From Minutocellus sp. GHC0000111 (Eukaryota), in contig OZ361260.1 of the NCBI GenBank assembly GCA_977018835.1, forward strand, positions 3,162,001 through 3,226,000: 64,000 bases of DNA, given 5' to 3'. A program made the translations under genes and the position numbers. The notes under the pieces were generated by a model. The model searched no databases. It saw nothing but the letters and a program-made list of their open reading frames with translations, and was not told the origin of the DNA. Shown piece after piece: positions 2,038 to 52,141 of the stretch (its first letter is position 1; every line of letters starts with the position of its first letter).

Positions 2038-5000
2038 ATGACCGACGGAAAGGAAGAGACCAGCAATGGCAAGAAATACTCCCGAAAGGAGTCTAGAGAG
2101 AGGGCGAAGTAGGAAAGACTGCGACAGCAGAGACAGGCTCGGAAGACGCCTGCTGCATCAGCCTCTTCCAACCCTCATTCTTCATCCTCGCCTCCCGGAA
2201 ATAATGACGTGACGACAAGGACGTCGTCCGAACCATCCGCCCCGTCAAACGACGATACCTCCGCTTCGTCCACCGCCGCCCATACTCTCACCAAAGGCCG
2301 ATCGATGCGACCATCGACGCGTAAACGATCTGCTGCTGCCGCTGGCATCGCGAACGATGCGTCCTCATCCTCATCCTCATCGTCGGACCACGAACGCACC
2401 GGCCGCACTACCGGACCGCTCCATCCACCAGCACCACTCCCCGCCGGCGCACAAGCGGATGGTAGACGCCGCACACTTCGCTCATCGCCATTACCACCCA
2501 CTGACACAATGGTGATATCAAGGTCTCAATCGTTCTTAGCTATCCCGCCATCCCTTCCCGACTGTACTGGTACTCCGCATCCGGCAGACACATCCGCCAT
2601 CTCCACGTTCTGTTTTGGTACTTGCGATTGTCCCAGCACATGCGACAAGTGCAGCAACCCATCGCCCAGCACCTTTCCTTCCGCATCGGAACTCTTTCCT
2701 GACGGCCCTCCTCGCGCTCGCGATCCGGTTGGCCCTGGCACTTCCAATGCAACAGCAACAGCTAGCACCGACATGTCTGCTGTGGGCTCTGACCGTGCTG
2801 GTCCACATGCAGCGGCAGATTCTGATGGAGCAGCGGCCGGAGGAGCCATTCTTGCATCATTGGACGGCACTTCTACCGGTATTGATGGCATCGGAAAGAG
2901 CATTGGGGACGTGCTGAAGGGTGTCGAGGTCGGAGCTGCCGGATCAGATGCAGTCGGTCGTTGTTTTCATTTGATGATGACTGCTCTCAAGGATGGAATC
3001 AAGAGTGGTAGCCTAACCGGCGATGCTGCCGCTATAGGCAATGAAATGGTATCTACTATTTCTTCTATGCCTGTAGTATCGAGATTGGGAGCTGCATCAA
3101 GAGAGGAGGAGAGAGCAAAAAGAAGAGGCAACAATCTTCTCGTTCCAACAATAAATTATTCTGCCTTTGATGTCAATCAGCGGAACAATCAGCCGAGGAC
3201 ATCCGCCGATGCCATAAGAAAGGCAAAGGAACGAGCAGCTAATGTAATATTGAATGCTGTCCAAAGCGTTGGCGATGAGCAAGTTCAGGCCTATGCCCTT
3301 CGTTTATTTGCCAACAAGCCGCAAGCAGCTAAAATTGTTCTCGGTTCTGGACTGAAGGTGCCGGATAATACGGAAAAGAAGCTGCAGATGCTCGATAACT
3401 TGACCTCCCACGCATCTGAACTATTCAAGAGTGACGGTGCTGCAAAAGGACGGGTAAATGATGATCAGTCCAGCGCCCTGCAAGTGTTGTACGATGCAAT
3501 AGTTGAGCCATGCAATGCCAATGCTGCCTCTACCGCTACCTCTACCTCGAGCACTCCAAAGCTTACAACAACTGACTACCAGAAGGTGCTTCCAGGGTCA
3601 AGAGCTACGGTTCAGCGGCGAGTAAAGAAATCAAAGGATCGAAAGACAAAGTTCAAAGTAGGAGCAAAAGAAGAAGGGCTAATGTATTCTCGTGTTAAAA
3701 AGAGGAAGGGGTGGAGCAAGGTGTCCAAAGAGCTCCAGAAAAAAGTAGTAGAGTGGCTAAAGAATCATCCCTCAATCGTCGAGTCTCCAACAATAAAAGA
3801 CACTATTCTCGTTCGCGATGCCAACACCGGAGAGAAGGTTCGTGTGCGAAAGAGGTTGATGATGTGCTCTATTCGAGAGCTCTACAACAGCATGTACGAG
3901 GGGCCGCTCAAAATACCGGAGGCTCGTGACGATCGAGGAAGGGAGATAATATCCGACACGAAGTTTCGAGCCATCATCCCGCCCAACTTCGTCGCTATGC
4001 GAGAATCTCACAAGGTAATGTGCGGGTGTGAGTATTGCATTATTATGAAACGGCACCAGGCTTCTCTGAATGCCTATCGTCGTCGTCGCGTAAAGAGAAT
4101 GAAGGACGCTGTTGATAATTTTGGTGAGGTCGCCGAAAATTCTGCGGAGAGAGAGGCCGCGGAAGAGAGGTACCAAAGTTACAAGGCCAAGACGACGAAT
4201 GAGGATGGGAGTCCGACACACCCACATCCAAAGGACGCTTTACTTTGCATCCAATGTGGCAATGTCGAAGGCTTTGAATTTCCTCATTGGAGTTGTGTCT
4301 TGAGACGATGTTCAGATTGCCCTGCCTACGAAGTCATGCCCGAGGAGGCCGGTGAGGCTGCCGACGATGACCGCATAAAGTTTCACACTTACGAGAGTGT
4401 TACTTCATGCCGCTCTCATCCAGAGCAGCAGCTACCTCTACGTAGCAAGTCTTGCCCAAAATGTGATGAACTTATTGAAACTTACGAGCAAAGATTCGGA
4501 GACGATCCTGACAGCAAGGTGCCAAAGCCAAAGGCCGGAAAGATTTCTACAAGAAAATATCTCATGGCTAGATCTGAACCGATTGGAATCTTTATCAAAC
4601 AACACTACCTGAAAGCGCTCGAAAAATATGCTTACCATCGTCACCATGTTCTTATTTTATCGAACTCCCACACCGGCAATGAGAGGAAGGAGGTTTGGAA
4701 GTCCAAGCCCGGTGACGTGCTAACCCACCGAGACTACGCAGAGAGACTCACTGCTGCTCTCAACAATGAGATTATGTCGATGCACTTCGGTGGTAACGCT
4801 ACAGTGTCGATGGAAGGTTGCTCGGTAGAGCACTGGAAGAAGGAAGCTTTGGAAATAATGAAAGAAATGAGTGACGATGAAATCACAGCTCATCTCGAGG
4901 AGATGGGTAGTGTAGATGAGAAGGTAGCCATGCAATTCCACGCTCACCTCGCCGATGACAAGATGCAGAATGCGTACCTAGGTACAGCACAAATCAGCAC

Positions 5001-6383
5001 ATGCAGGTACAAATCAATCATTTACTTCAGTCGGGGGTGTTGAAAATTGGTTCTACTATTTATGATGGCTCTGACGGCTGCACCAAGCAGTATCGTTGTG
5101 CGGTGGTCTTACTCTTTCTCTCTTGGTTGAGCGTCAAGTATAAAATTACTATCGATAGAGCTCTTGGGGCGCCAGGTCACGGAAAAGATCACGTTGATGG
5201 CCTCAATGCAGCCAACAAGGCATATCTCATTGCTCGGATGCGGGACATAATGACCCCTGATGTAGACTGTGATGCCATTTATGCTGACCGGAAGATGGAG
5301 CCACAGTTGTATCAAGATGGCCAGCACAAAAGCCTCGCGGTGGAAATGCAGCGCCTGCTAGACCAGCCTGACAGGAAAGATGGTGTCAAAACTGTGGGCA
5401 ACAAGAGACGGAAGCGAGAAGCAGATGAAGTGAGAATAAGTGAAAGGCACAACCACGTTCGAACGTCAGAAGATGTCAAGCACCAAAGTGTATTTGCAGC
5501 AATATCACCTCCTCTTGCTGTCCGCAACAAAGAATACACCGGAATCCGCGCTCACTACAATTTGCTCACCTCTTGGGAACTCGGAACAAACAAGGCCGCA
5601 GTGCGATTGATTCCTTGTGCATGCGATGGGTGTGTACAGCAGTCGAGGGAGAAGTGGATGAGCGATGGGAGGAAAGACGAGGAGCAGCCGAGATTCAAGC
5701 AGAATAAAGAATGCAAATATTGGAAGATATTTGAGGGATTGAATGATTGGAAAATAACATCAGTCCAAACAACAAACAAATCAGACCCCGATGAAATAGA
5801 TGATCTCAAGGAAGATACCCTTGAAACGGTTTCATCTCGAGAAGCAGGCCTGATTGAGGTCGGTGGGTATGGCGCGGTAGATGTAAATGACGATCCAGAG
5901 TATGACTACTATTTGGTGAGATGGGATGGATTGCCGTATGCAGATCAAGAAACGGGGGAAATGATGTGCGATGGCACTTACCTGTACAGAGTAGACGGAG
6001 CGCGATACTGGTGGTATCATCCGGAGGAAACTTTGGCAGCTCGGGCAAGGGCTACATTTTATGTATCCCATGTTCTGGCAGGCGACATCAAAATGCTACC
6101 AATATCTGATGACAACAATCTCAATCGACAGAGCTTGAATCCTGACCATCGCAACAAAGTGCTTACTCTAGATCCTCGGTATCTCGGGGAGGAAGCCCAT
6201 TCTCAAATCCTCGAAGAGATTGAGAGAAGAGGGTGCATGAATCGCACTATTACCTATGATGACGATGAGGGCGGGGATAGCGATAGAGAAGAGGAAGAAA
6301 CCGGATTAGATGGTGATGATGAAGAGTTGGCCATTGATGATTCATCAGATGAAGAGGGGGACGAGGATGAAGAGGAGCAATGA
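2038..6383 (+). pseudogene. Large DDD-type transposase, Sola2-like, disrupted by an in-frame TAG at 2110-2112 and an 8-bp insertion at about 4977-4984
   Basis: Motifs RDYAE..EIMSMHF, ADDKMQNA, SDGCTKQYRC and APGHGKDHVDG, plus Cys-rich clusters. ORFs 2209-5043 and 5001-6383 join in frame if 8 nt are removed. Superfamily assigned from motif memory; no TIRs identified. Confidence 0.65.
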
Positions 6384-7260: not shown

Positions 7261-10200
7261 CCTTTCGAGTTCAGAGGATTTGAAAGTGACGTGATGATGA
7301 CGTATTAGAAACACGACCACACCAGACCAAAAATCCAAGCTCACTTTTTCTAACTCCGAGGAATAAATGACGGCCAAGATGGAAGTCGGGGCAAGAGCCA
7401 AGTTATGGTCACCAACTTCTACATATAGTCGAGAGATATTGTGCACCAGAACCAATAAATGTACATTATGTGATGATTTTTTTCGACATTTGCATTCATT
7501 CCTCACCCCGGGAAAAAACACATTTTTTTTGGAAGCACCAAATGTCAAAATGTAATGAGTAGAAATGGACATGCTATGATAAGTTATAGCAAATCAATGA
7601 CTCCATCGTCTTCATCATTTTCATCTATGTCGTCCTCAATGTCATCATCTTCGCCGGGAGCATCAATTGGCCAGAGTGGTTCACCATCCTCTTCAGCTTC
7701 TTCCTCGACAATTTTGCGAGACCAGCCTTTCCCCGTCTGGTCTCCACAAGATTGTTACCGCCACGACTTCTCTTGATGTTGTTATATATCACTGGAAGTT
7801 TTCCAAATACATTGAGAAAGGCCTCTTTTGATGCGACATTGGCCCACATACTTTCATCACAGTCTTGTCAAGAGCATTCGCATCATTCTTCTGACCGCGA
7901 TGCTCCTCCTTTTCGACGGCCGACTGCAAAGACATCCAGATGCCGAGATCAAGAACATTTGTCTCGGGCGACCGAGGAACCTGCTGGATTATCTCAATCT
8001 TATGTTTGTTTTTGAGGTCCTCGGTGTACTTCTCAACTGCTTCATTGGACCCATGACCGCCGGCATTGTCCATCATAAGATGTGTAACATCAGACTCCTG
8101 AACATTTTGTGGATCCCACTTCACCCAATGATGTGCGTCTCGAATCGCCTTCCCGACCTCATTCACAGTCTCCAACATCCATTTGGAGTCGCAGCTACAG
8201 TCCTTGGTAACCTTATCGCCCCGTTGATACCGCACCCCGAGCTCAAGGTCGTCGATCTCAACCTTCACCTTCTCTCCATTGCTGTCAGGAGTGTGTCGCT
8301 TGAGACTCGAGATCTTTTGATTGTAGCCAACAGCGGCATGCTTGCGACTTTTTGCCTGACCGTCGGATTTATAGTCCTCGTATTGAAGTTCCAATCGCTC
8401 TGTAACAAACTCAGAAAGGCCGTAGATTTCGGCAATGTGGTCGCAAAGATGGCCGGCGGTCATGTCAGCATTCTCGTCGTAAATGTCGCGCCAATCTTTG
8501 TCATTTTTTAGCGCATCGTTGACCTTAGCATCTGGAGAGAAATTCTGATTACGCGCAAGCTTTTCCACCTTCTGCTCCCTGGCGACTCTCTTGATCATGA
8601 TGCGCTTCATTGGTCGGCCAACAACTCCAAGACACATAACTTTGACAGGGTGTCTTCTGGATCGAATTTTCGGGCTTGCCTCGGAAGCATGGACAGACGC
8701 GAGGTTCTGACCACTTAGTTCTTCGTCAGAAAGTGGCAACATCTTGCTTTCGTCGCCGAGTAGCAGTGTAAAACCACTTTTCATCAAGATGCGCTACAGG
8801 AATGTTGGGATCGGTCGTAATGTCCTCCCACTTTTCGATCCAATCAAGTCGCTTCCTACAACATTCGGGGGGTGAGCCTCGGCTTCTCGATCGACGACTT
8901 CTCCTTGCCGCCTTGCTTTTTCCACCAGCGAAAAAGCTGAAGACGATGGAGACTAATTGTCAGCCTATCTTCATCTGGAGTAGCTGATTTTGCGCTCATG
9001 CAGTCAGCTAGCTCCTTAAAGGTTGCCATCGCACCCTTCATCCGAGCAGCACACCGACACAGAGCTCGCGGAGATTTCCTGGCTCCTTCTCCTCGATCAT
9101 GTCCGTGCATGCCTTCCTTCCACGAACCTCCTTTCTGCCGATGGGATTGCTGATGCCATCAGTAAGGCTTTTGTAGAGCTGGTCTCTCCACTTGTAAAGC
9201 TGAGAACCACCGGTTGACTTGGCATGACCGTGATCGCACGCAACTTGCCGACACGCGGCAGTTGCAATTTGTTGCCGGTCTTCATGCGTGCGAGTTGGGT
9301 CGCCGCATCCCCACCAATCCGCGAGAGCCACGGCGCTGAACCGCATTCTTTCATTCGCCTGCTTTTCTTTTCTTTTCTGATTGGTGTTGGTTCGGTGAAG
9401 GTTGCATTGGGACGAGGAGGACGGAGCATGTCATCGTTGGCCATCCGAACAACAAAGTCGAGGCCGAGAGCGACCTTTACCTGTTCATCAATGTCACTGG
9501 AGGTGGCACAGACAACGGAAGTATCGGCTCCTCCTAAACCTTCATCATTGGGGGAGGCTGCAGCTGCTTCAGTGGCGGAAGCATCACCAGTTCCCTTCAG
9601 CATGCTGAGGAGACTTGCTGGCATCCAACCCAGTTTCTTGGCCTCGTCGACTAGTGATTTTACTCTTGCTTCGCAACGCGCTGACTGCACCTCCTTTCTG
9701 TGAGCTGACAACCTCTCACCTAGCTTAGTAGCTAAGACAGTCGAGCGCCCAGAGAACAGAACTTCATCGGGATTTCTTTTCTCGTGCACCTTCTTTCCCT
9801 CCGGTCCAGAGAATTTAGGGTGGTTGTCCTCCTTCTTTTTACGCAACCTGTGAGCACAAACATAAAGCGCCCTGCGTCTTGTCTTCCCTCTCGGCCGACA
9901 CGTCGACAAGTGCAACTTCAAACTACAATGCTCCTTGAGATGTTGCTGCATATCCTTCCATTTTTCCTCGTTGTACTGTAGCTCATACTTTCCTCCACCG
10001 ACGGACTTGGAACGCAACAAGTCGGCCTCGATGAAAGCAGGGAGGACGTCTTCCCATTTCTGCCGAGAACCAACACAAATGTCATCTTTGCCGCAGGAAT
10101 CGGGGGTTACTCTCCACCACAGATCCTTACCAGCCCTTCGAATGACATCTGCTGCAAGGAGAAAGGCCATGGGGATAGGAGGAGGGGCCGTCCTCTTCTT

Positions 10201-10688
10201 CGCCGACGACGGTGACGGTTTGGCGGGCGAATTTTTGACCGTGGCCGCTTCTTCGACGTGTTTGCGCTCGGCGATGGTGTTTTCGGCTCAGCTGCCGCCT
10301 TTGCCGCCTTCCTGGATGCCTTGGTGTTGCCTCTCTTGCTCCCTGAGAACGAAGTTCTGCTGCGTTTGTATTTTTTGGGCGTGGTCTGGTTGGTCGTCGT
10401 CATCGTCACAAAATTTGCGGGTTGCGGTGAGGGTGTGCGGGGGACCAAAAAACACATGTGTTCCTGCCAGAATCTACTGGACCTGCGAATTCAGTGGATA
10501 CTACTGGTCGGTGGCAACCTACTGAATGAGCAGGTCCAGTAGATATCCACGAGTTGAGGAGTATTTGCGTTCCTCCCGAAGAGAACATCGACTAACAAAA
10601 CACGTGGTGGGAAATGAGAAATGGGTGCAAGAATGACCTTTTTAGGGGTTATTGGTATACCCTCTACAAATCCTCTGAAACCGAAAGG
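7261..10688 (-). mobile_element. Tc1/mariner DNA transposon, DD39D type, with frameshifted transposase (about 7570-10400)
   Basis: 22-bp TIRs CCTTTCG(AG/GT)TTCAGAGGATTTG at 7261-7282 and 10667-10688, flanked by TA on both sides. HLDEKWFY motif near 8790; MDNAGGHG...QVPRSPETNVLDLG has 39 residues between the 2nd and 3rd D. Confidence 0.9.
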
Positions 10689-26165: not shown

Positions 26166-29100
26166 TTGGGGGTGAATGTGGAATCCGTTAATTCTGGCCC
26201 AAGCGCGAAGGTTGGCAATGGGGCGGCCGCTCCGATTACACCGGCGTGTGACACCACAGGCATTAGTGGTGGTTCCACCGGTGCTGACGGTGGCGATGGA
26301 TCTGGCGTAGTGCCAATCTATGATGCGTGTCGGTCCGGTATTGGTGGCCATCCTCAGTTGTTGAGCGTGCTGCAAGCTGGAGACATTGGTCGTGGAGTGT
26401 GTTCCAAATACTTCTCTTTCACGCAAAAGGATGGAGCATGGCGGAGCCCGGACTGTTCGACATTTATTGGTGCAACTTCCGAGGCTCCGGTGGACGTGTG
26501 TGATGGCTGTGCAACCGTATTTTCTGCTATCAGTCCTGATAAATATCCGCGGCTGTACGACGAGGTTGGCTTGGTGCTGCCATCCGCCGCCGACTTGACT
26601 GCTTCACTGGTGCGAATGCACAGCATGCAAGGAGAGGGATTTGTTGCGTCCAAGGAGGGTCAGGCAGCAATGCGTATTTTGCGGGGGCAGCCATCGGTAT
26701 TTTGCTAGCGTAAAGCTAGGAGAAAGGAGTTGGGTCAATTTTTGTCCGTCGTTCGGCGACGCTTCGTGTGGGCTGGCCTCCTTAGGTGAATTCGAGCGGG
26801 ATGGCATTTTGTGTGGTCCGTGCTCGACTGAAAGGAAAAACTTCCTCCGACGGGAGAACAGGAAGCAACTGAATCGCGCCAAGCAGGTCGGCGCCAGCAG
26901 CCGAGCTCCGATCAAGCACCTGACCCCGACGAGGCTGAAGGAGCGCCAGCAGAACCAACGGAAAGCTGCCCGCTCCACCAGGGACCGCCTGCGCTACGCC
27001 AAGACAAAGCTGGAGAGTGATGCTTGCAAAGTCGCTTTTGACCTCGAGAAGGACGGCGTCATGCTTGACCTCTTCAAGACGGCTGCTGACCACGTTGGCA
27101 GCGACCATGCTTCGGCGAGGTCAGTGCTCTTGGAGGAGCTCGCCAAGGAGGCTGTCAAGGACGCTGCCGGCGATGCAGCTGAGCTGGCTCTGGACCAGAC
27201 GGCTGCAGTCGGCGACCTGGTGGGCTTCATTTTGGGTGAGATTCAAAACTCAGCTCGCCAGCTTGCAGGGAGGCCCCGCACGGCGCGTTTTTCTCCCAGG
27301 GTGGTGCGACTTTCGCTGGGCCTCTGGATGAGGAGCCCTGCAGCCTACAAGGTCCTCCAGGACTCAGGGCTCATGGTTGTGCCATCGGCCTCCACTTTGA
27401 AGCGACTCAAGGCAAAAGTTGCTGTTTCGGACGGCCTCTGCCCTGAAGTCTTTAGCTGGCTTGGCGACGCCTTCGTCTCGAGGGAGCGCAGCAGCCACGG
27501 AGAAAAGGGTCTGGCTGGCCACTTGATGTGCGACGAGATCAAGATCAAGTCTGGCGTTGCCTGGAACACTGCCACGCACGAGGCGGTTGGACTCGTTGGC
27601 GTTGAGGGGAAGGTCGAGCTCCAAGACGACTTGCGGGCCATCCTGAGGGGCGACAAGCCTCCAGGAGGCGACAGCGACGCCAGCGCTGGCGACGCCCTTG
27701 TTGCAGGAGGGACGAGCAAGCCAGCCACCTACGTGAACCAGTGGAAGTTTCGCTCCGTCTACGGAAGGACTTTTCTCCTCAACTTCTTCTTCAACGGTGG
27801 GTCTCTCAGTGGCGACGAGCTCCTCCGGCAGCTCACGCACCAAGTCCACGGGGTTGAGCTTGCCGGCGCCAAGGTCCTGGGGGTGTGCCTGGATGCTGGA
27901 GGGGGCAACAGTCGCCTCTGCTCCCTCTTGAGAGGAGGGCAAAAGGTCGGCGACGCCGCCTGGGTTTCGGCGGAGCTGGTGACGTTTGCGAGCCCTGCCT
28001 GCCCAAGCCGAAGCGTCGCAGTGTTTTTCTGTGCGACCCACGGCCTCAAGTCACAGCGAAACGCCTTCAGCAACAGCTCAGTCACCCCTGGTGCAAAAAA
28101 GAGAACTTTTGTGACCACAGAGGGAGTGGCTTTTGGCCTGGAGAGCATCGAGAGGTGCCTGGTGCGGGACCAGAAGCGGTCCGCCAGAAAGACCAAGCTC
28201 ACGCCAGCAGCGGTTCAGCCGAACAAGTGGGAGAAGATGAGAGTGGCCCTTGCAAAGGCCGTCTTTGACCCAGACACTAGAGACGAAAATATTTTTACAT
28301 TGGAAGTGAGCTTGGCTGCTTGGACGAGCTAAGGAGCAGTGGAGAGGGTGGAGGTGAGGTTCAAGGCCAAGCCCTCGCAAGAAGAAGGATCGAGGCCCTC
28401 AAAGTCAAGCTCGCGGCCGCTGCGGAGCGCCTAGGCGACGCCAACTTTCAACAGCTACGGCAAGACCTGGCTCACGTAGAGTACAACTTTCATGTCGGGA
28501 CTATTTTTATTGAAAACTTTTTGAATGGCGAGGTCAGTGTCACCCCAGACAACATCGACGAGAAGGAGAAAGAGACTAGGTCTGCTTTGGAGTGCTTCGA
28601 GGCTTGGCGACTCGCCTCTTTGCAGCTCAAGCAACAAGGCAACCCTGCGTGGGAGCAGTCCTTTATTTCTACCACCACGTACAAAAACCTTCGGATTGGT
28701 GTTTGCGGCTTCTTTCAATACTGCCGACTCGTCTTCCTGCTACCGAACCCTCCCTCGTACGTAAAATTCCTCCATGCCAACCAGTCATCGCTTGAAGCTA
28801 CCTTCTCACACATTCGATACTTGGGCGGCGACTCTGTCCACAACTATCCGTCCGCAATAACAGCCATCAACTCTCAAGACAGCATCCAGATTATGAACGA
28901 ATCCAACCCAAACTACGAAGGCGACACCACGGAGGTAGCAGTGTCATGGAATCGTCTGGAGTCGGTGATGGGGCGCACAGACGATCGCCGAGCTCTGGTG
29001 GTAAAGTCGTGGCGAGACGAGACTGGTGGTAAAGTCGTGGCGAGACGAGAAAAAGAAGCCGGCAGAGGCATCCATCTCGATACTTCCTCCTTGCGACGAT

Positions 29101-30282: not shown

Positions 30283-30956
30283 AATAATGTACATATTCGT
30301 ATCTGTACACAAACTTAGCAAAGCAAGAAATGGAAAGCGGGTGACTCCAGCGGCAAAAGGGGCTGACAAGATACGGACGCAAGGTCCCTTGTCGGCCACA
30401 TCGGCTGCCGCCATTGTTGACCGTGCTACCATTACCAGCTGAACTCAGTATGATTCGGGAGAATGAATACATGATGCCCAGCCAAGAACCGTCCATAGAT
30501 GCCCTCACATGAATAAATTCACGAACAGAATGTTTCTCACATCTCGATGGGCAGCACGCCGGAACCGATGGGTTGATCAATACAAAAGCACCGGACCTGC
30601 CAGTTGGCGGCAAAAAGTACGACGGGAGGGGGCGGCGGCGGCAGCTCGCGCTGACGGTGGGCAAGCAATCGCCCATTTGCTTAGGCAACGACGCCGCCGG
30701 ATCGGCGTACTTGTTGCAGGCACCACGCAAGAGGGCACCTGCACGCCATGGCGGCTCGTTCCGCCGGAAGGGGGATGTGGGCGACACGACGAAGCAGCCC
30801 TTTCGGCTTATGGCGTAGTAGTATTATTTGCGCGGTGCGCGTTGAAGATGAAAGATGCGCGCTTGGGCCAGAAATTAACGTCATCCACAATCACCCCAAA
30901 AAAAGAGTGCCGAACATGGTGGAATTTTCCCCTTGCTTTCTGCCATGCGTGCACCA

Positions 30957-31152
30957 TGCTAAGAGTTCCTAAAGCTAAGCTAGATAGATATAGCTAGTAG
31001 AGGTTAATAGGACCTACGTAGATGAAAAATGGGCCATCGGAGATGTCGTTGGCCCATGGATCAACGGTCAGGAGAGGGCACTGAGTCAGTGGTCTGATCA
31101 CCGTACGTACCGTACGTATGTATACGTACGAACGTATCCCACGGTGTCAACA
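30957..31152 (-). repeat. 3' LTR
   Basis: Direct repeat of 36969-37164 with about 8 mismatches. Confidence 0.95.
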
Positions 31153-31200
31153 CACCCTCGCAGATCAATGACTAGTGCCATTGAATCTACATGTAGAGTC

Positions 31201-33186
31201 CTAATTGGAATCTACATGTAAGTAGACTGGTCGCATGTCGACATGGTAGCGGGCGGGATGGTGCTTTGTAAAATAATCGGCCAAATTTTGCGCTCCTTTC
31301 TGCCAGCACACCTGGAATTGTCGTTGCTCTGTGGTGCGATCTTGGACCCCAGCATGGAGTCTCATGTCCACAGCCTTAGACCGTCTTTGCTTGACGGTTT
31401 TATTGGCGATTCCAGATGCTGTAGAGTTGTCAACGACGATAGCAGTAGGGGGCTGCGGGTGACCCATTTCTTCTAGTGCTGCCCGGATTGGTGCTGCATC
31501 TTTCATGTTGAAAAATAATCCTCCCAACTCGGCGGCTTCAGCGGCGGAGGACATTGCATGCTTGATGACATTGGCATTGACGAGGATGGCTCCATTCATT
31601 GGTGGCATGGGATCACTTGAGTCAGGCTGGCGGTGCGGGTCCTTAGGTCGGGAGCTTAGGTAGAAGCACCCTCCGAGCTTGCTTCTTGATTTCGGGGCTG
31701 ACAAGCAGGAGGCGTCGCCATGCACGTGCACATGTGGGATCATGTCTGACTTGACGCATCGAATGACTGCGTCGGGATGGGTTGCAAGGTAATCTAGAAG
31801 CTTCTTGGCATCTTGTCGAGTGCGCTCGGTAGCTTTGGATTGTTCCGCTGAGATGCTGTTGAGCGCCGGCAAAATTGTTGAATCAGTTGCTCGACCATGG
31901 TGCAAGGAGCTGCCCACCACCTGTTGAACTTCGTTGATGCCTTTGGCGTCGAGTGGTGGTGAGTCGTCTTCCGGTTCTGGCAGCTGGGGTCCCGGGCCAT
32001 GCGTCGGACGATTCCATCGACATGGCGCATGCTCGGGCCGTGAGGGGCGGTCGTGTTGGAACTTGTGGCGCATCTCCTTGACGTAGTTAGGCATGGATGG
32101 ATCCACCCATTTGGCCTCGTAGTTCCACTCGAGTTGAATGCCACAACAAAGTCGGCCTTCCCAATCGGCAGTGGTCTTACACTTGGAGTTGAGGGCCTGA
32201 ATGAGATGGTCTGCATGCTCTTTCCCGACACACTTTGCTCCAAAATCGTCAACGGTTAGGCAAAAGGCAATTGGGCGGGTTTTGTGCCTCCAAAGGCCGG
32301 CAGCACGCTTGCAAGGGAAATAGCCATGGGGTTTGAGATGCTTGACAAGTTGATCGCAGGCTAGGCGCCCTGCCTGGGGTAATCCATGCATTCCGCCATC
32401 GATTCTGACCAATGCTCGACCATTCTTTACTTTGTCGTGGAGGTCGTAGGCTTCCATGACTTCGTCGGGGATGAGAGCTACTGGCGCCCACATCCATTCT
32501 GGCTCTGGCATGGTGCTATTGAGACAGAAGTCACTGATGTCAATTCCCATGAAACAAGCGTTGTCTGTAGAGATGACGCTGTTGAAAAGTAACTTTGCAG
32601 TCAACATTTCAGCGGTCGGGGTCGAGACTGTGCCAGGGTAATGAATTTTGTCGCCTCCTGCAGTCCATCGAACTCGATTGGGATTTGGTTTGTGGGAGCG
32701 ACAGTCGGCGACAATGCGGAGGCATGTGGCTTTTTTCCCCCGAGGCAGTTCGGACCAGTGGACGAAAGCCATTGCATTGGAGGGAATGCTAGCACTGTTT
32801 CCAACTCGGCCGTCCGTTAGCCGTCCAATTTCATCGATGTTTGCTTGAATGAATTGGTCCCTCATGTTCGTTTTGAGGAGGTCGCGGTGTTCAAGCATTG
32901 CACCAGTGTCGGGATGGACGACGGCGTTAGCAAAGTGTTGGAGGTTTGGTAAAGGCGAGAAAGCTGCCATGTTGGCCACGTGGTGGGTACTACGACGAGA
33001 TGATGGCCGTGGGGGAGGGTTCCGATGTGGAATGTGCCCTCGCTGACGGCATGATCGTCGTCGAGGTGGTTTGGCGGTCGGTCGATGGTTTGGACTTGCT
33101 TGTCGATTTTGCTGGAGCTGGTAATGTTGGAGTGGCATCGATCGTTGGAGACTTGCGTTTACGTTGCCGACGGGAGGTGGGGGCAT
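31201..33186 (-). pseudogene. Copia reverse transcriptase + RNase H
   Basis: GM(H)GLPQAG, LTVDDFG, DAS(C)LS, SSAAEA(A)ELGG, VDNSTA, NLADYFTKHH; many conserved Tyr replaced by Cys/His. Confidence 0.92.
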
Positions 33187-33419
33187 TGGAACTTTGATTG
33201 GATGTTACGACGGTTGAATCGTCGTCATGATCATCATCATCGTCGCCGTTGGGCTCGTCTGCTGCAGCCAAAGGATTGTAGTAGTTGGAAGAAACTGACG
33301 AGCGAGGTGGCGCGTTGGATCGACGTGATCGACGGCTTTTAGTGGTGGCTGCATCACATGTGGAGGATTTTGCCACCCTCGGAGGTTGCTGGGGCTGAGG
33401 TAACGGAGCGTTGGGGTTG

Positions 33420-35389
33420 GAGACAAGGTGACGGCCTACTTCAGTCTCGTTCATCTCTTCTGCGTCGTCGTCCTCGTATTTGATTTTGTAGCACTTATGC
33501 TTCTTGTCAAATGCAACGACTCTACCCTCCAAACACTTTGGCGACGATGGTGCCGAGGCGGCATCGTTGGGAGTCGTCATCGTTCTCCAGCACCCTCGGA
33601 GCTGCGGTTGTCTGCATCGTCTCATCAGAGGCGGAGGTGGCAGATTCTGCTGGGGTCACGCTGTTGAAAATCTCGGAGAGCTTTTCTAAAGCTTGACGAT
33701 GCTCGTCTCGAAGGGGAGCAAGGGGTGCCGCTGGATGTGGATTCTGTAGAGCGTGCAGGAGTTCATGAGCTGCGACTATTGCTGCATCGGCCGACGACGT
33801 TTTGGGTACCGGAATCATTTTGGGGAGCCAGACGAGTGTGTTACCAGTGCGTTCCGCCCGAGTTTCCTCAATCCAAACCTTGTAACACCGGTAGTGTTCC
33901 ATGGCTGGACCGACATAGTACCCATCAACGCCATGCGGGGACCAAGAGCCGCGTGCCGAGGGCATCTCGTGAAAGATGACCTTGCATCCGAGGGGGCCGA
34001 GAGGCGTGCGATTGAAATCAAAGCCGCCATTGAGTTGCTCGTGCGCTGATAGTCGAGGGTTGACTCGGGATGCTCTCAGGAAATTGAGGGTCATTACCGC
34101 CTGCTCCAGCAATTTATCCCACAAGATGAGGGGAAAGTCGGGATCGGCACCACAGAGAATCGCAATGAAATGATTCTTAAAGGTTCGAATGGCTCGTTCG
34201 GCCGCATTTCGGCGGTGGGAGTGCGTTGGGGTCAATTGAAAATCTACATCCTTTTCTTCCATGAACTCCTTCAGCTCTCGACTCACTTCATTGTCCAATC
34301 GTTGCAATTTTGGGCGAAATCCTCGCTTGGAGAGGTGTTCGAAAATAGTTTGGTACGCTCGGCGCATTTCCGTTCCCGATCGGCTTTTCATTGGTTCGGC
34401 CAAGATGCTGTTGGAGTCATAGTCACAGACGACCATTATGTGCTGGTGGCCAGAAATAGACGACACCAAGAAACGGCCGGGCTGATCTGAGAAGATCTGG
34501 CCCGTTATGTCATGACAATCAGCAAAGACATAGTTGGTGCGCTGTTGGTGTTGTGCCGGGTGGAGATCCTGCTCGGTTTCGTCCACCCCAGGGAGAGATT
34601 TTGGCGTAGCCATCGACCGTTTGGGCTTGGTCGACCTGATGTTCTTGCGCTGCTGGTCTAAGTGACCTTTAATCATCGGTGTCGACTGTGGCATGTGCTT
34701 ACGTACAAGCTTTGATGTGAGGCCTGGCCAAGATCTATGAAATCCCGCATCGATTGCTTTGCACCAGGTAGATAGCTGAGGACTGCCAGCGCACCAATGT
34801 AAAAAGGCTACACGTTCCGGAACCGTCTCCTGGGCAATTGCGGCATTGGCAGCATGTTGGATGACGTTGGGGCCGGGGAGCGGCGACATGGTGGGCGAGC
34901 AATTAAGATCTACCATCCACAATTTCGTTGAGGGGTCTCGTTTGCCTTGCAAAATGACGGTGTTGTCCTTGGCGATGACTACCGAATCCTTATCGAAAGT
35001 GGCAACACATCCATCGTCACACAGCTGCCCAATCGATAGGAGCGATGATGCCATATTATTGAAAATATAGGCCTTGCTAGCCGATGGGGAAACCCCAGGG
35101 AGGCGAAGCGTGGCCTCGTGGGGGTGTTCGTCATTGTGCTGTTGTCCGGAAGGGTGACGCTGATAGGAATTGCTGTCTGTTGGACGTTGAAAATAGGGCC
35201 ATCGTGCGACAGGTGTTGGGGCTTCTGGACAAAATGTCCCGTCGTTCCAGTATCTGCTGCGAGGACGATTGGCTCTTGAGTTGGAGGTTTGCTTTTTGAC
35301 GTAAGAAAAGCTAACGAAGGCGGGGAGGAGGTGGATTCAGACACACTGTCCTCTATTTTATGCTGATTAACATCCACCGTCCCTCCCGC
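33420..35389 (-). pseudogene. Copia aspartic protease, integrase and a C-terminal Tudor-like segment (frameshifted)
   Basis: LAADTGTTGHF; FSDQPGRF, RLDNE, HRRNAAERAIRTFKNHF; EGRVVAFD..YKIKYEDDDAEEM. Confidence 0.9.
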
Positions 35390-36603
35390 TCAGTTACGAC
35401 GCGAGCTACCACCGCAAGGATTGCACTTGGTGGCGTTGTCAACGTGGTTGGGCCCTTTGCAAGTGCATTCAAAGCTGGGGTGGTTGGACGAATAGCCGCA
35501 CGTGTGGCAACAATGGCCTCTGGGGAGGATCGACTGCAGTTCCCGCTTCTCCTGGCGGTTGAGGTTAGGACCTTGGCCTGGGAAGTGGCCGGCGCCGTTC
35601 TGCTGGCCACCGCCGCGGTAGCCTCCACTGCCACCAGCATGGTTGCGTCCCTCACGCAGAACGCGAATCTCGGCCTTGAGTGAAGCTATTTCTTGGCGAA
35701 GTTTGGCAATGGCATCATCCTTCTCGTTGCTCTTTTTGGCGAGGTTCGCCATCATGGCTTGGTTGGTCTTGAGGGCTTCGGTGGTGTCAGCCAAAAGGAG
35801 ATCGGCTCGAGAAAGAAATGGATCGTCCGAGGCCGATGAGGCCAAATTCGCGCCATGATATCCTGCCGCTTCGGTGGTGGTGTTGGCCGTCTTCTTATCA
35901 CACCAATCGCGGAAGTCCGACTGCATGTTGGCCCACGTGCGTTCGGCCTCCGGTCTGTCGTCCCAGTCCTTGCATGCCTTCTTTGCCAATGAGAACCTGC
36001 GCACGGAGCGGTAGAACTTGGAGACCTTCTGCTTGTTGGTGAAGGGTTCGCCGGCCGTTTCAAACGCCTTGAAGACTTTGTTGAATATGGCGATGTGGGT
36101 GTCGATGGGTCCCCCGTCGTGCTGCTTCTCGAGCTGCTTCTCTAATTCCTCCTTCTGAGTCTCGTTGAATTTCAAGTAGCGATCGGTAATGCTGTCGATG
36201 ATTTGGCGGATGGTGACTGGCTGGAAACCGAGCATGTCATCTTCGAGATGATTGATGTAGACGGCGTCGATCGAGTCGAGGAGGAGATTCTTGAGCGCCG
36301 TGTTGACTTGCTCGTACAAGTTGTAGTGGCCCTCTTTTCGATGTAACATCCCCGGATTGCACGATCGCGTTGGTCTAGATTGGCCACGGCGGGAATGGTG
36401 GGGCTGGGGCCAGGATTTGCCGGAGGCACATGTGGTCGGCCGTTACTTTTGGTGGTGTGTTCGGCATCGCTGACGACGAGGCCCAAATGGCCGAGGTTGT
36501 GGTCATTGCACCCTGCTGCTGGAATGCTGGCCGCCGCTTGTTGAAGTTCCTTGAGCGCTTTGGCAACACGCTCGCGTTGGGGAGGTTGTCCTGGGTCATT
36601 CAT
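35390..36603 (-). pseudogene. Copia gag (frameshift near 36350)
   Basis: LGHLGLVVSDAE..PPANPG at the N-terminus; C-terminal Zn knuckle CHTCGY..HPSFEC..H. Confidence 0.85.
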
Positions 36604-36968
36604 ACGTTTGATTAACTTGGTGGGGAGAATCGGCGCTGCGCCGAGAGGTTGGCCAAAAAACTGCGTCGGGATTCATGCTGGTGTTTCAGTCAGAGCGAAG
36701 ACAGGCAGCACGGCGGTGTTGCTGCGAGACGTGTGATCGACAGAAGGTTCGATCCAGAGAAGTGTGATCGATTGGATGGGTCGATCTGGTCAGGACTTTC
36801 GGGGAAGGGATTGGATCGTCGTTCCAATATTGTCGAACGAAACGGTCGTTTTGGCCGATTGAAGATGTGTCGGTTTTTCTTGCGTGACGAGTGAGAACCC
36901 AAGACAAACCGGTGAGGTGCGAACCGAAATGGGGCGAGCACGGGTGGAAAAGATGTGTCACGTAGGTC

Positions 36969-37164
36969 TGCTAAGAGGTCCTAAAGCTAAGCTAGATAGA
37001 TATAGCTAGTAGAGGTTAACAGGACCTACGTAGATGAAAAATGGGCCATCGGAGATGTCGTTGGCCCATGGATCAACGGTCAGGAGAGGGCACTGAGTCA
37101 GTGGTCTGATCACCTTACGTACCGTGCGTATGTATACGTACGTACATATCCCACGGCATCAACA
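36969..37164 (-). repeat. 5' LTR
   Basis: Direct repeat of 30957-31152. Confidence 0.95.
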
Positions 37165-37604
37165 CACCACCCTGTTATTTGTTATGTGCTCTTGGGGGGT
37201 ACCCATCTGCGCGCATGCTAGCTAGAGATATAGCTTGCTAGCATTTCCTTTGTTCCGGCACGTAGTCAAATTCGTGTGGACAGTTGCGCTACAGCAGGTG
37301 GCCCGGGTGCCCCGATGAGTTGAGTGCGAGCACAAGCACGTTGCATTGTTAAAATCTAAGCAACGGAAAGCGTTTCTGTGTGTGTGTGCATAGTGCGTAG
37401 TGGTTTAGTCAGAAGGCACATGTAGTTTCAATGCTATGGCACTTCGTGCTAGTTTTCTCTCTCAGGAAACACTGTGCGGCACCTCGTGCTACATGCAGTT
37501 CCTATTACATATTTGTAACATGCATAAACTTTTCTTCACTGGAATGTGTGATTTTTTAGAGTCTAGATCCATGTCACAAAGTTGTAGTGTGTGCATGCAT
37601 TGCA

Positions 37605-37905
37605 TGTGTTTGACGGGCTGATGCAGGATGTGTTATTTGACGGGCTGTAGGAGGGCATCGCATAGAGGGCTGATGCAGGACATGCACTATTTGATGGGCT
37701 GATGCAGGGTGTATTATTTGACGGGCTGATGCAGGATGCATTATTTGACGGGCTGATGCAGGATGTGTTATTTGATGGGCTGAAGCAGGATGTGTTGTTT
37801 GATGGGCTGATGCAGGATGCATTATTTGACAGGCTGATGATGGGCTGATGCAGGATGCATTATTTGATGGGCTGGTGCAGGATGTATTTTTTGACGGGCT
37901 GGTGC
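37605..37905. repeat. Tandem array, about 27-bp unit TTATTTGA(C/T)GGGCTGATGCAGGA(TGTG/TGCA)
   Basis: About 10 degenerate copies visible. Confidence 0.9.
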
Positions 37906-37911
37906 GGGTGG

Positions 37912-50328: not shown

Positions 50329-50974
50329 ATGTAGATCTACCGGTGCTAGCTACTAGATCTACATGTACATGTACATGTGTACCGGCAGATGCTCTGATAG
50401 TGACGGATTCTCGGCTCGTCATTCGAGTCGAGAATATGGCTACTACGAGCAGTTTAGAGGTTTTAGGAGTGGACCTGAACGGCGCTATGAGTAATTATTT
50501 GCGGCTGGCTTTGCTGATCCTACTTTCTTCACTTCTCATTGCCTGATTATGTCGATCCTATAAAACGTCTATGTACCGGTAGAAAATTGTCATACATGTG
50601 TACCGGTACTACACATGTACCTACCGTAGTAGATCTAGGTAGCTAGTATACATGTAGCTCGTTGTGATTGGCGAAAGCTGCCTTGTCGGCTGCTACCATT
50701 GGTAAAGCACATGTCGTAGATCTAATACCAGTACTCGGCATCTAGGACATGAAAATGAAAACAACTCTTCTCTCAACTCAACTCCAAGCAAGCATACCGG
50801 TACATGTAGTTCCAGGCCCAACGGACGAACGTGGTGATTTTCTGCGACGTAAACTGTGCGTCAGAAAAATCAACGCGAGCCACGCAGATAGAGCCGCCGC
50901 GAGAGCGCCAGCAGCAGCAGAGGCAGCAAAAGATACGCGTGGCACATGATGTGAATGTACCAGTTCCAAAGGGA

Positions 50975-52141
50975 ATGGCGGACGATCAGCTCATCGCCGA
51001 GTGGCAGGAGATCCAAAGGGAAATAGCTTCCAAGGTTGTGGAGAAAAATAGTGACGACTTCTTTAGCCACAAGGAATATCTTACAGAGATTCCGCCAATA
51101 TCTTTTGGCGCCAAAGAAGGGGACGATGATGGGCATAATAACAGATTCAAGTACCGGCCACTGAACATTGACGAAGGCGGTCATATCAATGATGATTCAT
51201 TGTATGGTGGGGTCGACGTCTCGTTTGGTCCTCTTACAACTGACGACGCTGATCAAATTCACTCCCGGTGTACCGCCGTGGCGGTCTATGTCGTCCTTCG
51301 TCGTCAACAGAAGCAAAAGAATAAGCACAAAAGGCAACCAAACAGCGAGATATTGAGTGATGATTACGAGCTGGCTTATTCTGATTCCATTCACTACACG
51401 CCCAATGTGCCCTACATGTCAGGGTACTTGGCAATCCGAGAAATTGAGCCTCTACAAACTATGGTCCAACGTCAAATAGAGCAAAAGCCAGAATGCACCC
51501 CTCGAGTCATCTTGGTTGATGGAAATGGCATGCTTCATCCTCGAAAAGCAGGGATTGCTTGCTTTCTAGGAGTAAGAACTGGCGTCCCGACCATTGGGAT
51601 TGGTAAGAATTTGTGTTGTGTGGAACATTGCTGGACGGTCGACGGTGCGGAGGCTGCCGTTGCTTTAGGACTTCGGGATGCTGTGTTGGCTACATCAGCA
51701 AGAATGGCCGAATCAGACCAAGTAATTTCTGATACAAGGGATGTGAGGTTTGGAAAAACAAAGCATATTTATGATAACTGCAAGGATGTGCCGAGCATGA
51801 AGGAATCTGTGGATATGTTGGCTGCAACATGCAGGGGGTATGCTGTCAATCTTCAGGCATCGAATGGCAAAATATTGGGTGCAGCCGTGTATGGCCATGG
51901 TGGAAGAGCAAATGGCAAGCATGGGAAGCGAACTTCAAATCCAATCTATGTATCTGTCGGGCATAACATATCTTTGGGGGAATCAATTGTTCTCTGCACA
52001 AAGCTCTGCAATTCGAGAATCCCAGAGCCCGTTCGCGTTGCAGATCTGCTGGGTAGAAAGCTTATGCGCGAGAGTGAAACCAATGCCGTATATAGAGTGA
52101 TTTCACGAGAGAGCAGACACCCCCTCCGCGATGTTTCGTAA
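50975..52141 (+). CDS. ENDOV: Endonuclease V
   Basis: GGVDVSF, PYMSGYLAIRE, VILVDGNGMLHPR, PTIGIGKN, PIYVSVGH and RIPEPVRVAD. Confidence 0.95.
   Translation: MADDQLIAEWQEIQREIASKVVEKNSDDFFSHKEYLTEIPPISFGAKEGDDDGHNNRFKYRPLNIDEGGHINDDSLYGGVDVSFGPLTTDDADQIHSRCTAVAVYVVLRRQQKQKNKHKRQPNSEILSDDYELAYSDSIHYTPNVPYMSGYLAIREIEPLQTMVQRQIEQKPECTPRVILVDGNGMLHPRKAGIACFLGVRTGVPTIGIGKNLCCVEHCWTVDGAEAAVALGLRDAVLATSARMAESDQVISDTRDVRFGKTKHIYDNCKDVPSMKESVDMLAATCRGYAVNLQASNGKILGAAVYGHGGRANGKHGKRTSNPIYVSVGHNISLGESIVLCTKLCNSRIPEPVRVADLLGRKLMRESETNAVYRVISRESRHPLRDVS

What the first reader, a model, noticed from the sequence alone, without database searches (positions are those of the whole stretch)
31201..36603. Repeat-directed TpA->TpG/CpA hypermutation in the copia element (reverse-RIP-like)
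Seen: conserved copia residues are replaced systematically at codons containing TA. Tyr->Cys/His examples: GM(H)GLPQAG (CAT at 32386-32388), LA(C)DQ, K(C)VG, L(C)CG, L(HH)GRA, IR(C)V, DAS(C)LS, G(C)FY, QV(C)W, integrase Q(H)IMVV(C)DYDSN and SA(H)EQL, gag GH(C)CHTCG. I count about 16 lost versus about 11 retained Tyr in RT-RH. Also Val->Ala (GTA->GCA: WT(A)GGD, FG(A)K), Leu->Pro (CTA->CCA: VD(P)SM, MI(P)H) and a cross-codon CAT-AGC->CAT-GGC (HSD->HGD). Ancestral residues are taken from my knowledge of copia motifs. Established: fungal RIP (CpA->TpA) and 5mC decay (CpG->TpG) run in the opposite direction, and RNA editing would be strand-biased. Inference: A->G in a TpA context on both DNA strands, i.e. 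a genome-defence mutator. Candidate mechanisms are DNA adenine deamination or Pol-eta-like WA-motif error-prone synthesis targeted to silenced repeats. It destroys protein function without creating stop codons. I do not know of a characterised system like this; the literature should be checked.
Basis: partly seen in the sequence, partly recalled or inferred. Interest (0 to 1): 0.92.

Follow-up and report, generated by a model that had tools for sequence, protein, structure and literature searches.

The report
TA-erasing mutator hits diatom transposons
Copies of two unrelated transposons in this likely diatom genome have had many TA steps changed to TG or CA on both DNA strands, turning their tyrosines into cysteine or histidine, likely the work of a host defence enzyme whose footprint has been published mainly for viral DNA in one unrelated alga.

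Summary
Real, and not an assembly artefact. The window holds a full-length copia element (30957-37164, minus strand). It has lost 12 of 20 conserved RT-RNase H tyrosines, 11 of them to Cys/His; 119 relatives show Cys/His in 14 of 2355 cells. Across 45 sister copies, A>G occurs at TpA 37 times more often than at ApA/GpA, on both strands, and different copies resolve the same Tyr to Cys or to His. A Tc1-like DNA transposon family shows the same spectrum, so reverse transcription is not needed. Short-read contigs, including Illumina RNA runs from two studies, carry TG and CA alleles. The hot motif is RTAY: 65% of such Tyr sites are changed versus 16% at YTAY, and host intergenic gaps keep RTAY. 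The process is not new. A 2026 bioRxiv preprint (Mettrop et al.) measured TpA>TpG/CpA hypermutation of viral DNA in Bigelowiella natans, and this scan has noted it in other diatom genomes. Not found in print: a transposon-directed form in a diatom-like host, caught mid-course across many copies, with an RTAY motif. The enzyme is unidentified; a TadA/ADAT-like DNA adenine deaminase fits best. No DNA-level host-gene control was obtained.

The parts
30957..37164 (-). Full-length Ty1/copia LTR retrotransposon (CoDi-like), the mutated copy
   Evidence: LTR pair 96% identical, TG...CA ends, gag-PR-IN-RT-RH order; named integrase relatives come from diatoms
36969..37164 (-). 5' LTR
   Evidence: 8 differing positions against the 3' LTR, 4 of them fitting TA>TG/CA
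30957..31152 (-). 3' LTR; TA-rich (O/E 1.55) and largely spared
30952..30956 (.). Target-site duplication CACCA, left copy
37165..37169 (.). Target-site duplication CACCA, right copy
   Evidence: empty-site joint in run X5 (table 5)
35393..36600 (-). gag region, frameshifted; not compared with sister proteins
   Evidence: (table 4)
33525..35377 (-). Protease-integrase region with Y/C/H tri-allelic sites among sister copies
32990..33524 (-). Integrase C-terminal/linker region with a Tudor-like domain; several frameshifts
   Evidence: PF21743 on sister P0273; breaks seen
31204..32970 (-). RT-RNase H; no RTAY site left in 31740-32952
7590..10290 (-). Decayed Tc1/mariner-like DNA transposon copy showing the same TA>TG/CA spectrum
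   Evidence: 82 of 84 sister proteins mapped; PF01498 on relatives P0399 and P0409
26090..37205 (+). DNA transposon (TNP-like RNase H transposase) in whose right terminal inverted repeat the copia is nested; its second half is little affected
   Evidence: inverted repeat 26145-26193/30873-30921; joints 30921>37166; sequence; RTAY O/E 0.71

Best explanation
Transposon copies in this genome carry many A>G changes at TpA on both strands, mostly in RTAY context, and these are likely made after integration by a host mutator, most likely a TadA/ADAT-like adenine deaminase acting on DNA. Shown: the spectrum, both strands, the motif, independent outcomes in different copies, two unrelated transposon classes, and retention of RTAY in host intergenic gaps. 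Inferred: (1) dA is deaminated to dI, which is read as G at replication, giving TpG on one strand or CpA on the other. (2) A changed site is no longer TpA and so stops mutating, which explains Cys or His but almost never Arg. (3) The enzyme is steered to a subset of transposon copies by silent chromatin or small RNA. (4) The effect is defensive, because Tyr codons (TAY) are prime targets and conserved tyrosines are lost. That the host is a diatom is inferred.
For: Sister copia copies: TA>G in 58 of 547 (coding strand) and 34 of 503 (template strand) copy-site opportunities, versus 14 of 5939 at AA/GA; sites hit 36 of 99 versus 26 of 955, p=5e-24. Tc1-like family: 58 of 1017 and 44 of 616 at TA, versus 40 of 11829 at AA/GA. 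TAY sites hit 35 of 66 versus TAR 9 of 70 (copia) and 34 of 54 versus 7 of 41 (Tc1-like). Tyr columns changed: 65% if RTAY (38 columns), 16% if YTAY (26 columns), p=3e-9. Both Cys and His at one column in 17 of 49 copia columns with 0 Arg cells, and in 19 of 32 Tc1-like columns with 5 Arg cells. DNA level: 29 of 36 transitions among the 40 rows shown (of 157) fall in the TA class, versus 21% expected, p=2e-14. RTAY share of TA sites: 0 of 22 in the RT versus 22 of 45-46 in three related loci; 12 of 120 in copia coding versus 102 of 334 and 74 of 202 in gaps between host ORFs. Burden varies by copy, from 11 of 11 Tyr kept to 2 of 15. The same spectrum was measured de novo in B. natans. An engineered TadA (ABE8e) gives A>G/T>C off-targets at TA sites in genomes (PMC13225742 passages).
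Against: No enzyme was identified; no genome is held. No polymorphism control on host genes was obtained, so targeting rests on composition, and my 'gaps' are unannotated and may contain exons. Most rates come from protein differences with the window codon as reference, so they cover only non-synonymous changes, and copies share ancestry (p-values are overstated). LTR evidence for post-insertion change is thin: 2 clear sites, 1 TG/CA site that could also come from CpG, and 3 transversions. The LTRs keep 8 RTAY sites unchanged in both copies. Two other transposon stretches are little affected (RTAY O/E 0.64 and 0.71). Some changes are shared by all copies (Y189H in 7 of 7) and may predate insertion. 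Frameshifting short duplications are not explained by deamination. Defence versus by-product is untested.
Confidence: 0.55

Rival explanations
1. A modified base at TpA in silenced DNA (a methylated adenine or an oxidised thymine) miscodes or is processed by a biased repair enzyme, giving the same T:A>C:G outcome without a free-standing adenine deaminase.
For: The hottest class, RTAY, is a symmetric double-strand motif: a preceding purine also raises the Cys outcome (26% versus 11% of cells per column, p=0.02), as expected of a double-strand DNA reader. Short duplications in the same copies fit nick-based repair.
Against: No such mark at TpA was tested here or found in my searches. A second copia family shows the substitutions in long unbroken ORFs, so indels are not obligatory.
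Confidence: 0.22
2. An error-prone Y-family polymerase (Pol-eta-like) fills repair patches in silenced repeats and misinserts G opposite T, also slipping to make short duplications.
For: Acts on both strands, and 8 of 12 distinct resolved sister frameshifts fit 2-4 nt tandem duplications.
Against: The WA motif (recalled) predicts ApA hits. AA>G is 3 of 1529 and 5 of 1029 versus TA>G 58 of 547 and 34 of 503. Transversions are few.
Confidence: 0.12
3. A genome-wide TpA mutation bias, or GC-biased conversion between copies, acts everywhere and is only visible where selection is relaxed.
For: TpA is under-represented across the whole window (O/E 0.3-0.8). There is no direct polymorphism control.
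Against: Gaps between host ORFs keep RTAY near expectation (O/E 0.89 and 1.16) while copia coding is at 0.17. Host synonymous RT|A sites keep T in 147 of 460 versus 13 of 73 in the copia, but unaffected relatives are also low (7 of 34, 7 of 39, 9 of 32), so that second test is weak. Conversion has no known reason to single out TpA.
Confidence: 0.08
4. Sequencing or assembly artefact, or RNA/cDNA editing during reverse transcription.
For: Several window alleles are absent from the short-read contigs laid (e.g. 31886, 32095), and the sister proteins probably come from one long-read assembly (shared contig lengths).
Against: Illumina RNA runs X7 and X9 (two studies) and runs X1 and X5 carry TG and CA alleles at TA sites in both directions on the + strand. 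A DNA transposon has the same spectrum. A Logan short-read protein of another family shows it (P0328). Host ORFs up to 1260 codons are unbroken.
Confidence: 0.03

Closest known systems
TpA hypermutation of integrated viral DNA in Bigelowiella natans (Mettrop et al., bioRxiv 10.64898/2026.01.13.699255; parts 1-4 of 5 of the main text read)
   Same: TpA>TpG and TpA>CpA, both strands, in chromosomal DNA, local rather than genome-wide, uneven between lines there and between copies here. ADAT-like deaminase proposed but not shown. The paper already suggests transposons as further targets, from Pfam enrichment in TpA-poor genes.
   Different: There: a rhizarian alga, single-copy viral insertions, rate measured de novo. 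Here: a likely diatom, multi-copy LTR and DNA transposons, inferred from copy comparison, with an RTAY preference that its main text does not report (no 'diatom', 'trinucleotide' or 'retrotranspos' found). Its supplementary tables, not seen, may hold flanking contexts.
Fungal repeat-induced point mutation (RIP); features recalled, and summarised in Mettrop et al.
   Same: Transition hypermutation that disables repeated elements at a dinucleotide motif.
   Different: Opposite direction (C>T, creating TpA); makes stop codons. The link to homology pairing and the sexual cycle is untested here.
TadA-derived adenine base editor ABE8e off-target spectrum (PMC13225742, passages)
   Same: A>G/T>C at TA sites in genomic DNA.
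   Different: Engineered enzyme, not targeted to repeats; shows only that the chemistry can give this spectrum.
ADAR-type A-to-I RNA editing with 5'-U preference (as described in Mettrop et al.)
   Same: A>G after U/T in repeat-derived sequence.
   Different: Acts on RNA; here the changes are in DNA assemblies, on both strands, and in a DNA transposon.

Membership tests
B. natans-type TpA hypermutation | Changes are mostly A>G/T>C at TpA | tested here: met
   37-fold over AA/GA; 29 of 36 displayed transitions; same in the Tc1-like family
B. natans-type TpA hypermutation | Both outcomes, TpG and CpA (both strands) | tested here: met
B. natans-type TpA hypermutation | Confined to foreign or mobile DNA, rest of genome spared | tested here: inconclusive
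   Composition supports it (RTAY O/E 0.17 versus 0.89-1.16); no polymorphism control; some transposons little affected
B. natans-type TpA hypermutation | Rate about 1000-fold above background per generation | not testable with these tools
   needs mutation-accumulation lines
B. natans-type TpA hypermutation | ADAT2-like candidate in the genome | not testable with these tools
   no genome held
Fungal RIP | C>T transitions that create TpA | tested here: not met
   direction fixed by conserved Tyr and TA-majority alleles
Pol-eta-type WA hypermutation | A>G at both TA and AA | tested here: not met
   AA>G 0.2-0.5% versus TA>G 6-11%
A-to-I RNA editing | Sense-strand only, absent from DNA | tested here: not met
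   both strands, genomic copies, DNA transposon
Ty1/copia LTR retrotransposon | TG...CA LTR pair, 5-bp target duplication, integrase before RT, RVT_2 family | tested here: met
   PF07727 on relatives; the window's own ORF no longer hits Pfam
CoDi lineage of diatom copia elements | Placement by RT phylogeny | not tested
   only similarity to proteins named from Phaeodactylum, Fragilaria and Mayamaea

The most novel reading that the evidence does not exclude
Diatoms share with the distant alga Bigelowiella an ongoing, chromatin-guided DNA adenine-deamination defence, a mirror image of RIP. It recognises RTAY on double-stranded DNA, strikes LTR and DNA transposons copy by copy, spares LTRs and host DNA, and would be a natural targeted A>G DNA editor.
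Probability: 0.4. Interest if true: 0.9.

Novelty: new variant of a known kind. Interest (0 to 1): 0.7.

Why it matters
A natural, targeted A>G DNA mutator would be a genome-defence route opposite to RIP and APOBEC, and a possible source of a new adenine editor. This genome helps because the process is incomplete: untouched and heavily hit copies of the same family coexist, so targeting rules and the motif can be read off directly. The RTAY share of TA sites works as a diagnostic where plain TpA counts fail. The process would also distort transposon dating and annotation; this RT no longer hits Pfam.

Tried and rejected
No whole genome is held, so no deaminase search and no genome-wide copy alignment were possible. 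No read data were obtained on host genes or on the flanking DNA transposon, which leaves the polymorphism control open. The search for related loci gave only 6 distant loci (43-61% identity), three of them used as unaffected controls for RTAY and five for TAY:TAR. Plain TpA O/E did not discriminate. ApT as a secondary target: not significant in the copia (6 of 198 versus 10 of 604, p=0.24), weak in the Tc1-like family (11 of 145 versus 17 of 534, p=0.03); not claimed. Duplications as part of the same process: tandem-repeat density is not raised (24.2 versus 25.7 per kb in host), the sites are not evidently TA-centred, and 8 of 22 junctions stayed unresolved; not claimed. Of 9 other copia clusters, 1 shows the signature clearly (P0018 cluster, 22 of 121 cells), 1 weakly (9 of 151) and 7 little or none. 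The TA/AT-poor island at 26860-28280 keeps its conserved residues and is shared by sister copies; not counted as evidence. The protein atlas did not give a host taxon. PMC10661471 passages gave nothing on TadA context. Paper searches found no description of this in diatoms; searches returned only the B. natans preprint; one search was for base-editor context.
Full report
Anatomy. The finding lies in a complete copia LTR retrotransposon on the minus strand, 30957-37164. It has 196-bp LTRs about 96% identical, TG...CA ends and a CACCA target duplication. It is nested in the right terminal repeat of a DNA transposon; contigs that join 30921 to 37166 show versions without it. The host is inferred to be a diatom. 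Named relatives of the integrase come from Phaeodactylum, Fragilaria and Mayamaea, and a neighbouring DUF1118 gene carries an ATAFAP stretch that I recall as the heterokont plastid-targeting motif. No genome is held.

Noticed in passing
window 26860-28280: Sharp GC-rich island inside the transposase ORF, almost free of TA and poor in AT (AAT O/E 0.12); conserved residues are kept and sister copies share it. One sister has a Tyr>Cys change (P0589). Cause unexplained.
   Followed up: partly
window 30957-31152 and 36969-37164: The LTRs are TA-rich (O/E 1.55), include GTAC repeats, and are largely spared while the internal region is heavily changed.
   Followed up: partly
window 50810-52141: Endonuclease V gene (inosine-specific nuclease family) 14 kb from the element; probably coincidence.
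   Followed up: no
window 31331, 31533, 31725-31740, 33075, 35120, 36332, 36513, 36692: Short tandem duplications in the copia copy, some in frame; similar ones break sister copies.
   Followed up: partly
window 37170-38400: TG/CA-rich flank and 27-bp and 39-bp tandem arrays right after the element (TGY O/E 2.0-2.35), possibly decayed by the same process or by CpG loss.
   Followed up: no
window 2113-6383: Two long ORFs with no Pfam hit that look like an unclassified DNA transposon (judgement from sequence); RTAY only mildly reduced (O/E 0.64).
   Followed up: no
window 33365-33529: Tudor-like domain (PF21743 on sister P0273) after the integrase, a possible chromatin-targeting module.
   Followed up: no
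window 28990-29050: Tandem duplication of about 27 nt that shifts the frame between the second and third transposase ORFs.
   Followed up: no
window 47967-48016 and 50827-50876: 50-bp two-copy repeat, 92% identical, near the starts of the F-box and Endonuclease V ORFs.
   Followed up: no
P0018, P0328-P0331: A second copia family from short contigs shows a nearly pure TA>TG/CA protein signature without frameshifts.
   Followed up: partly
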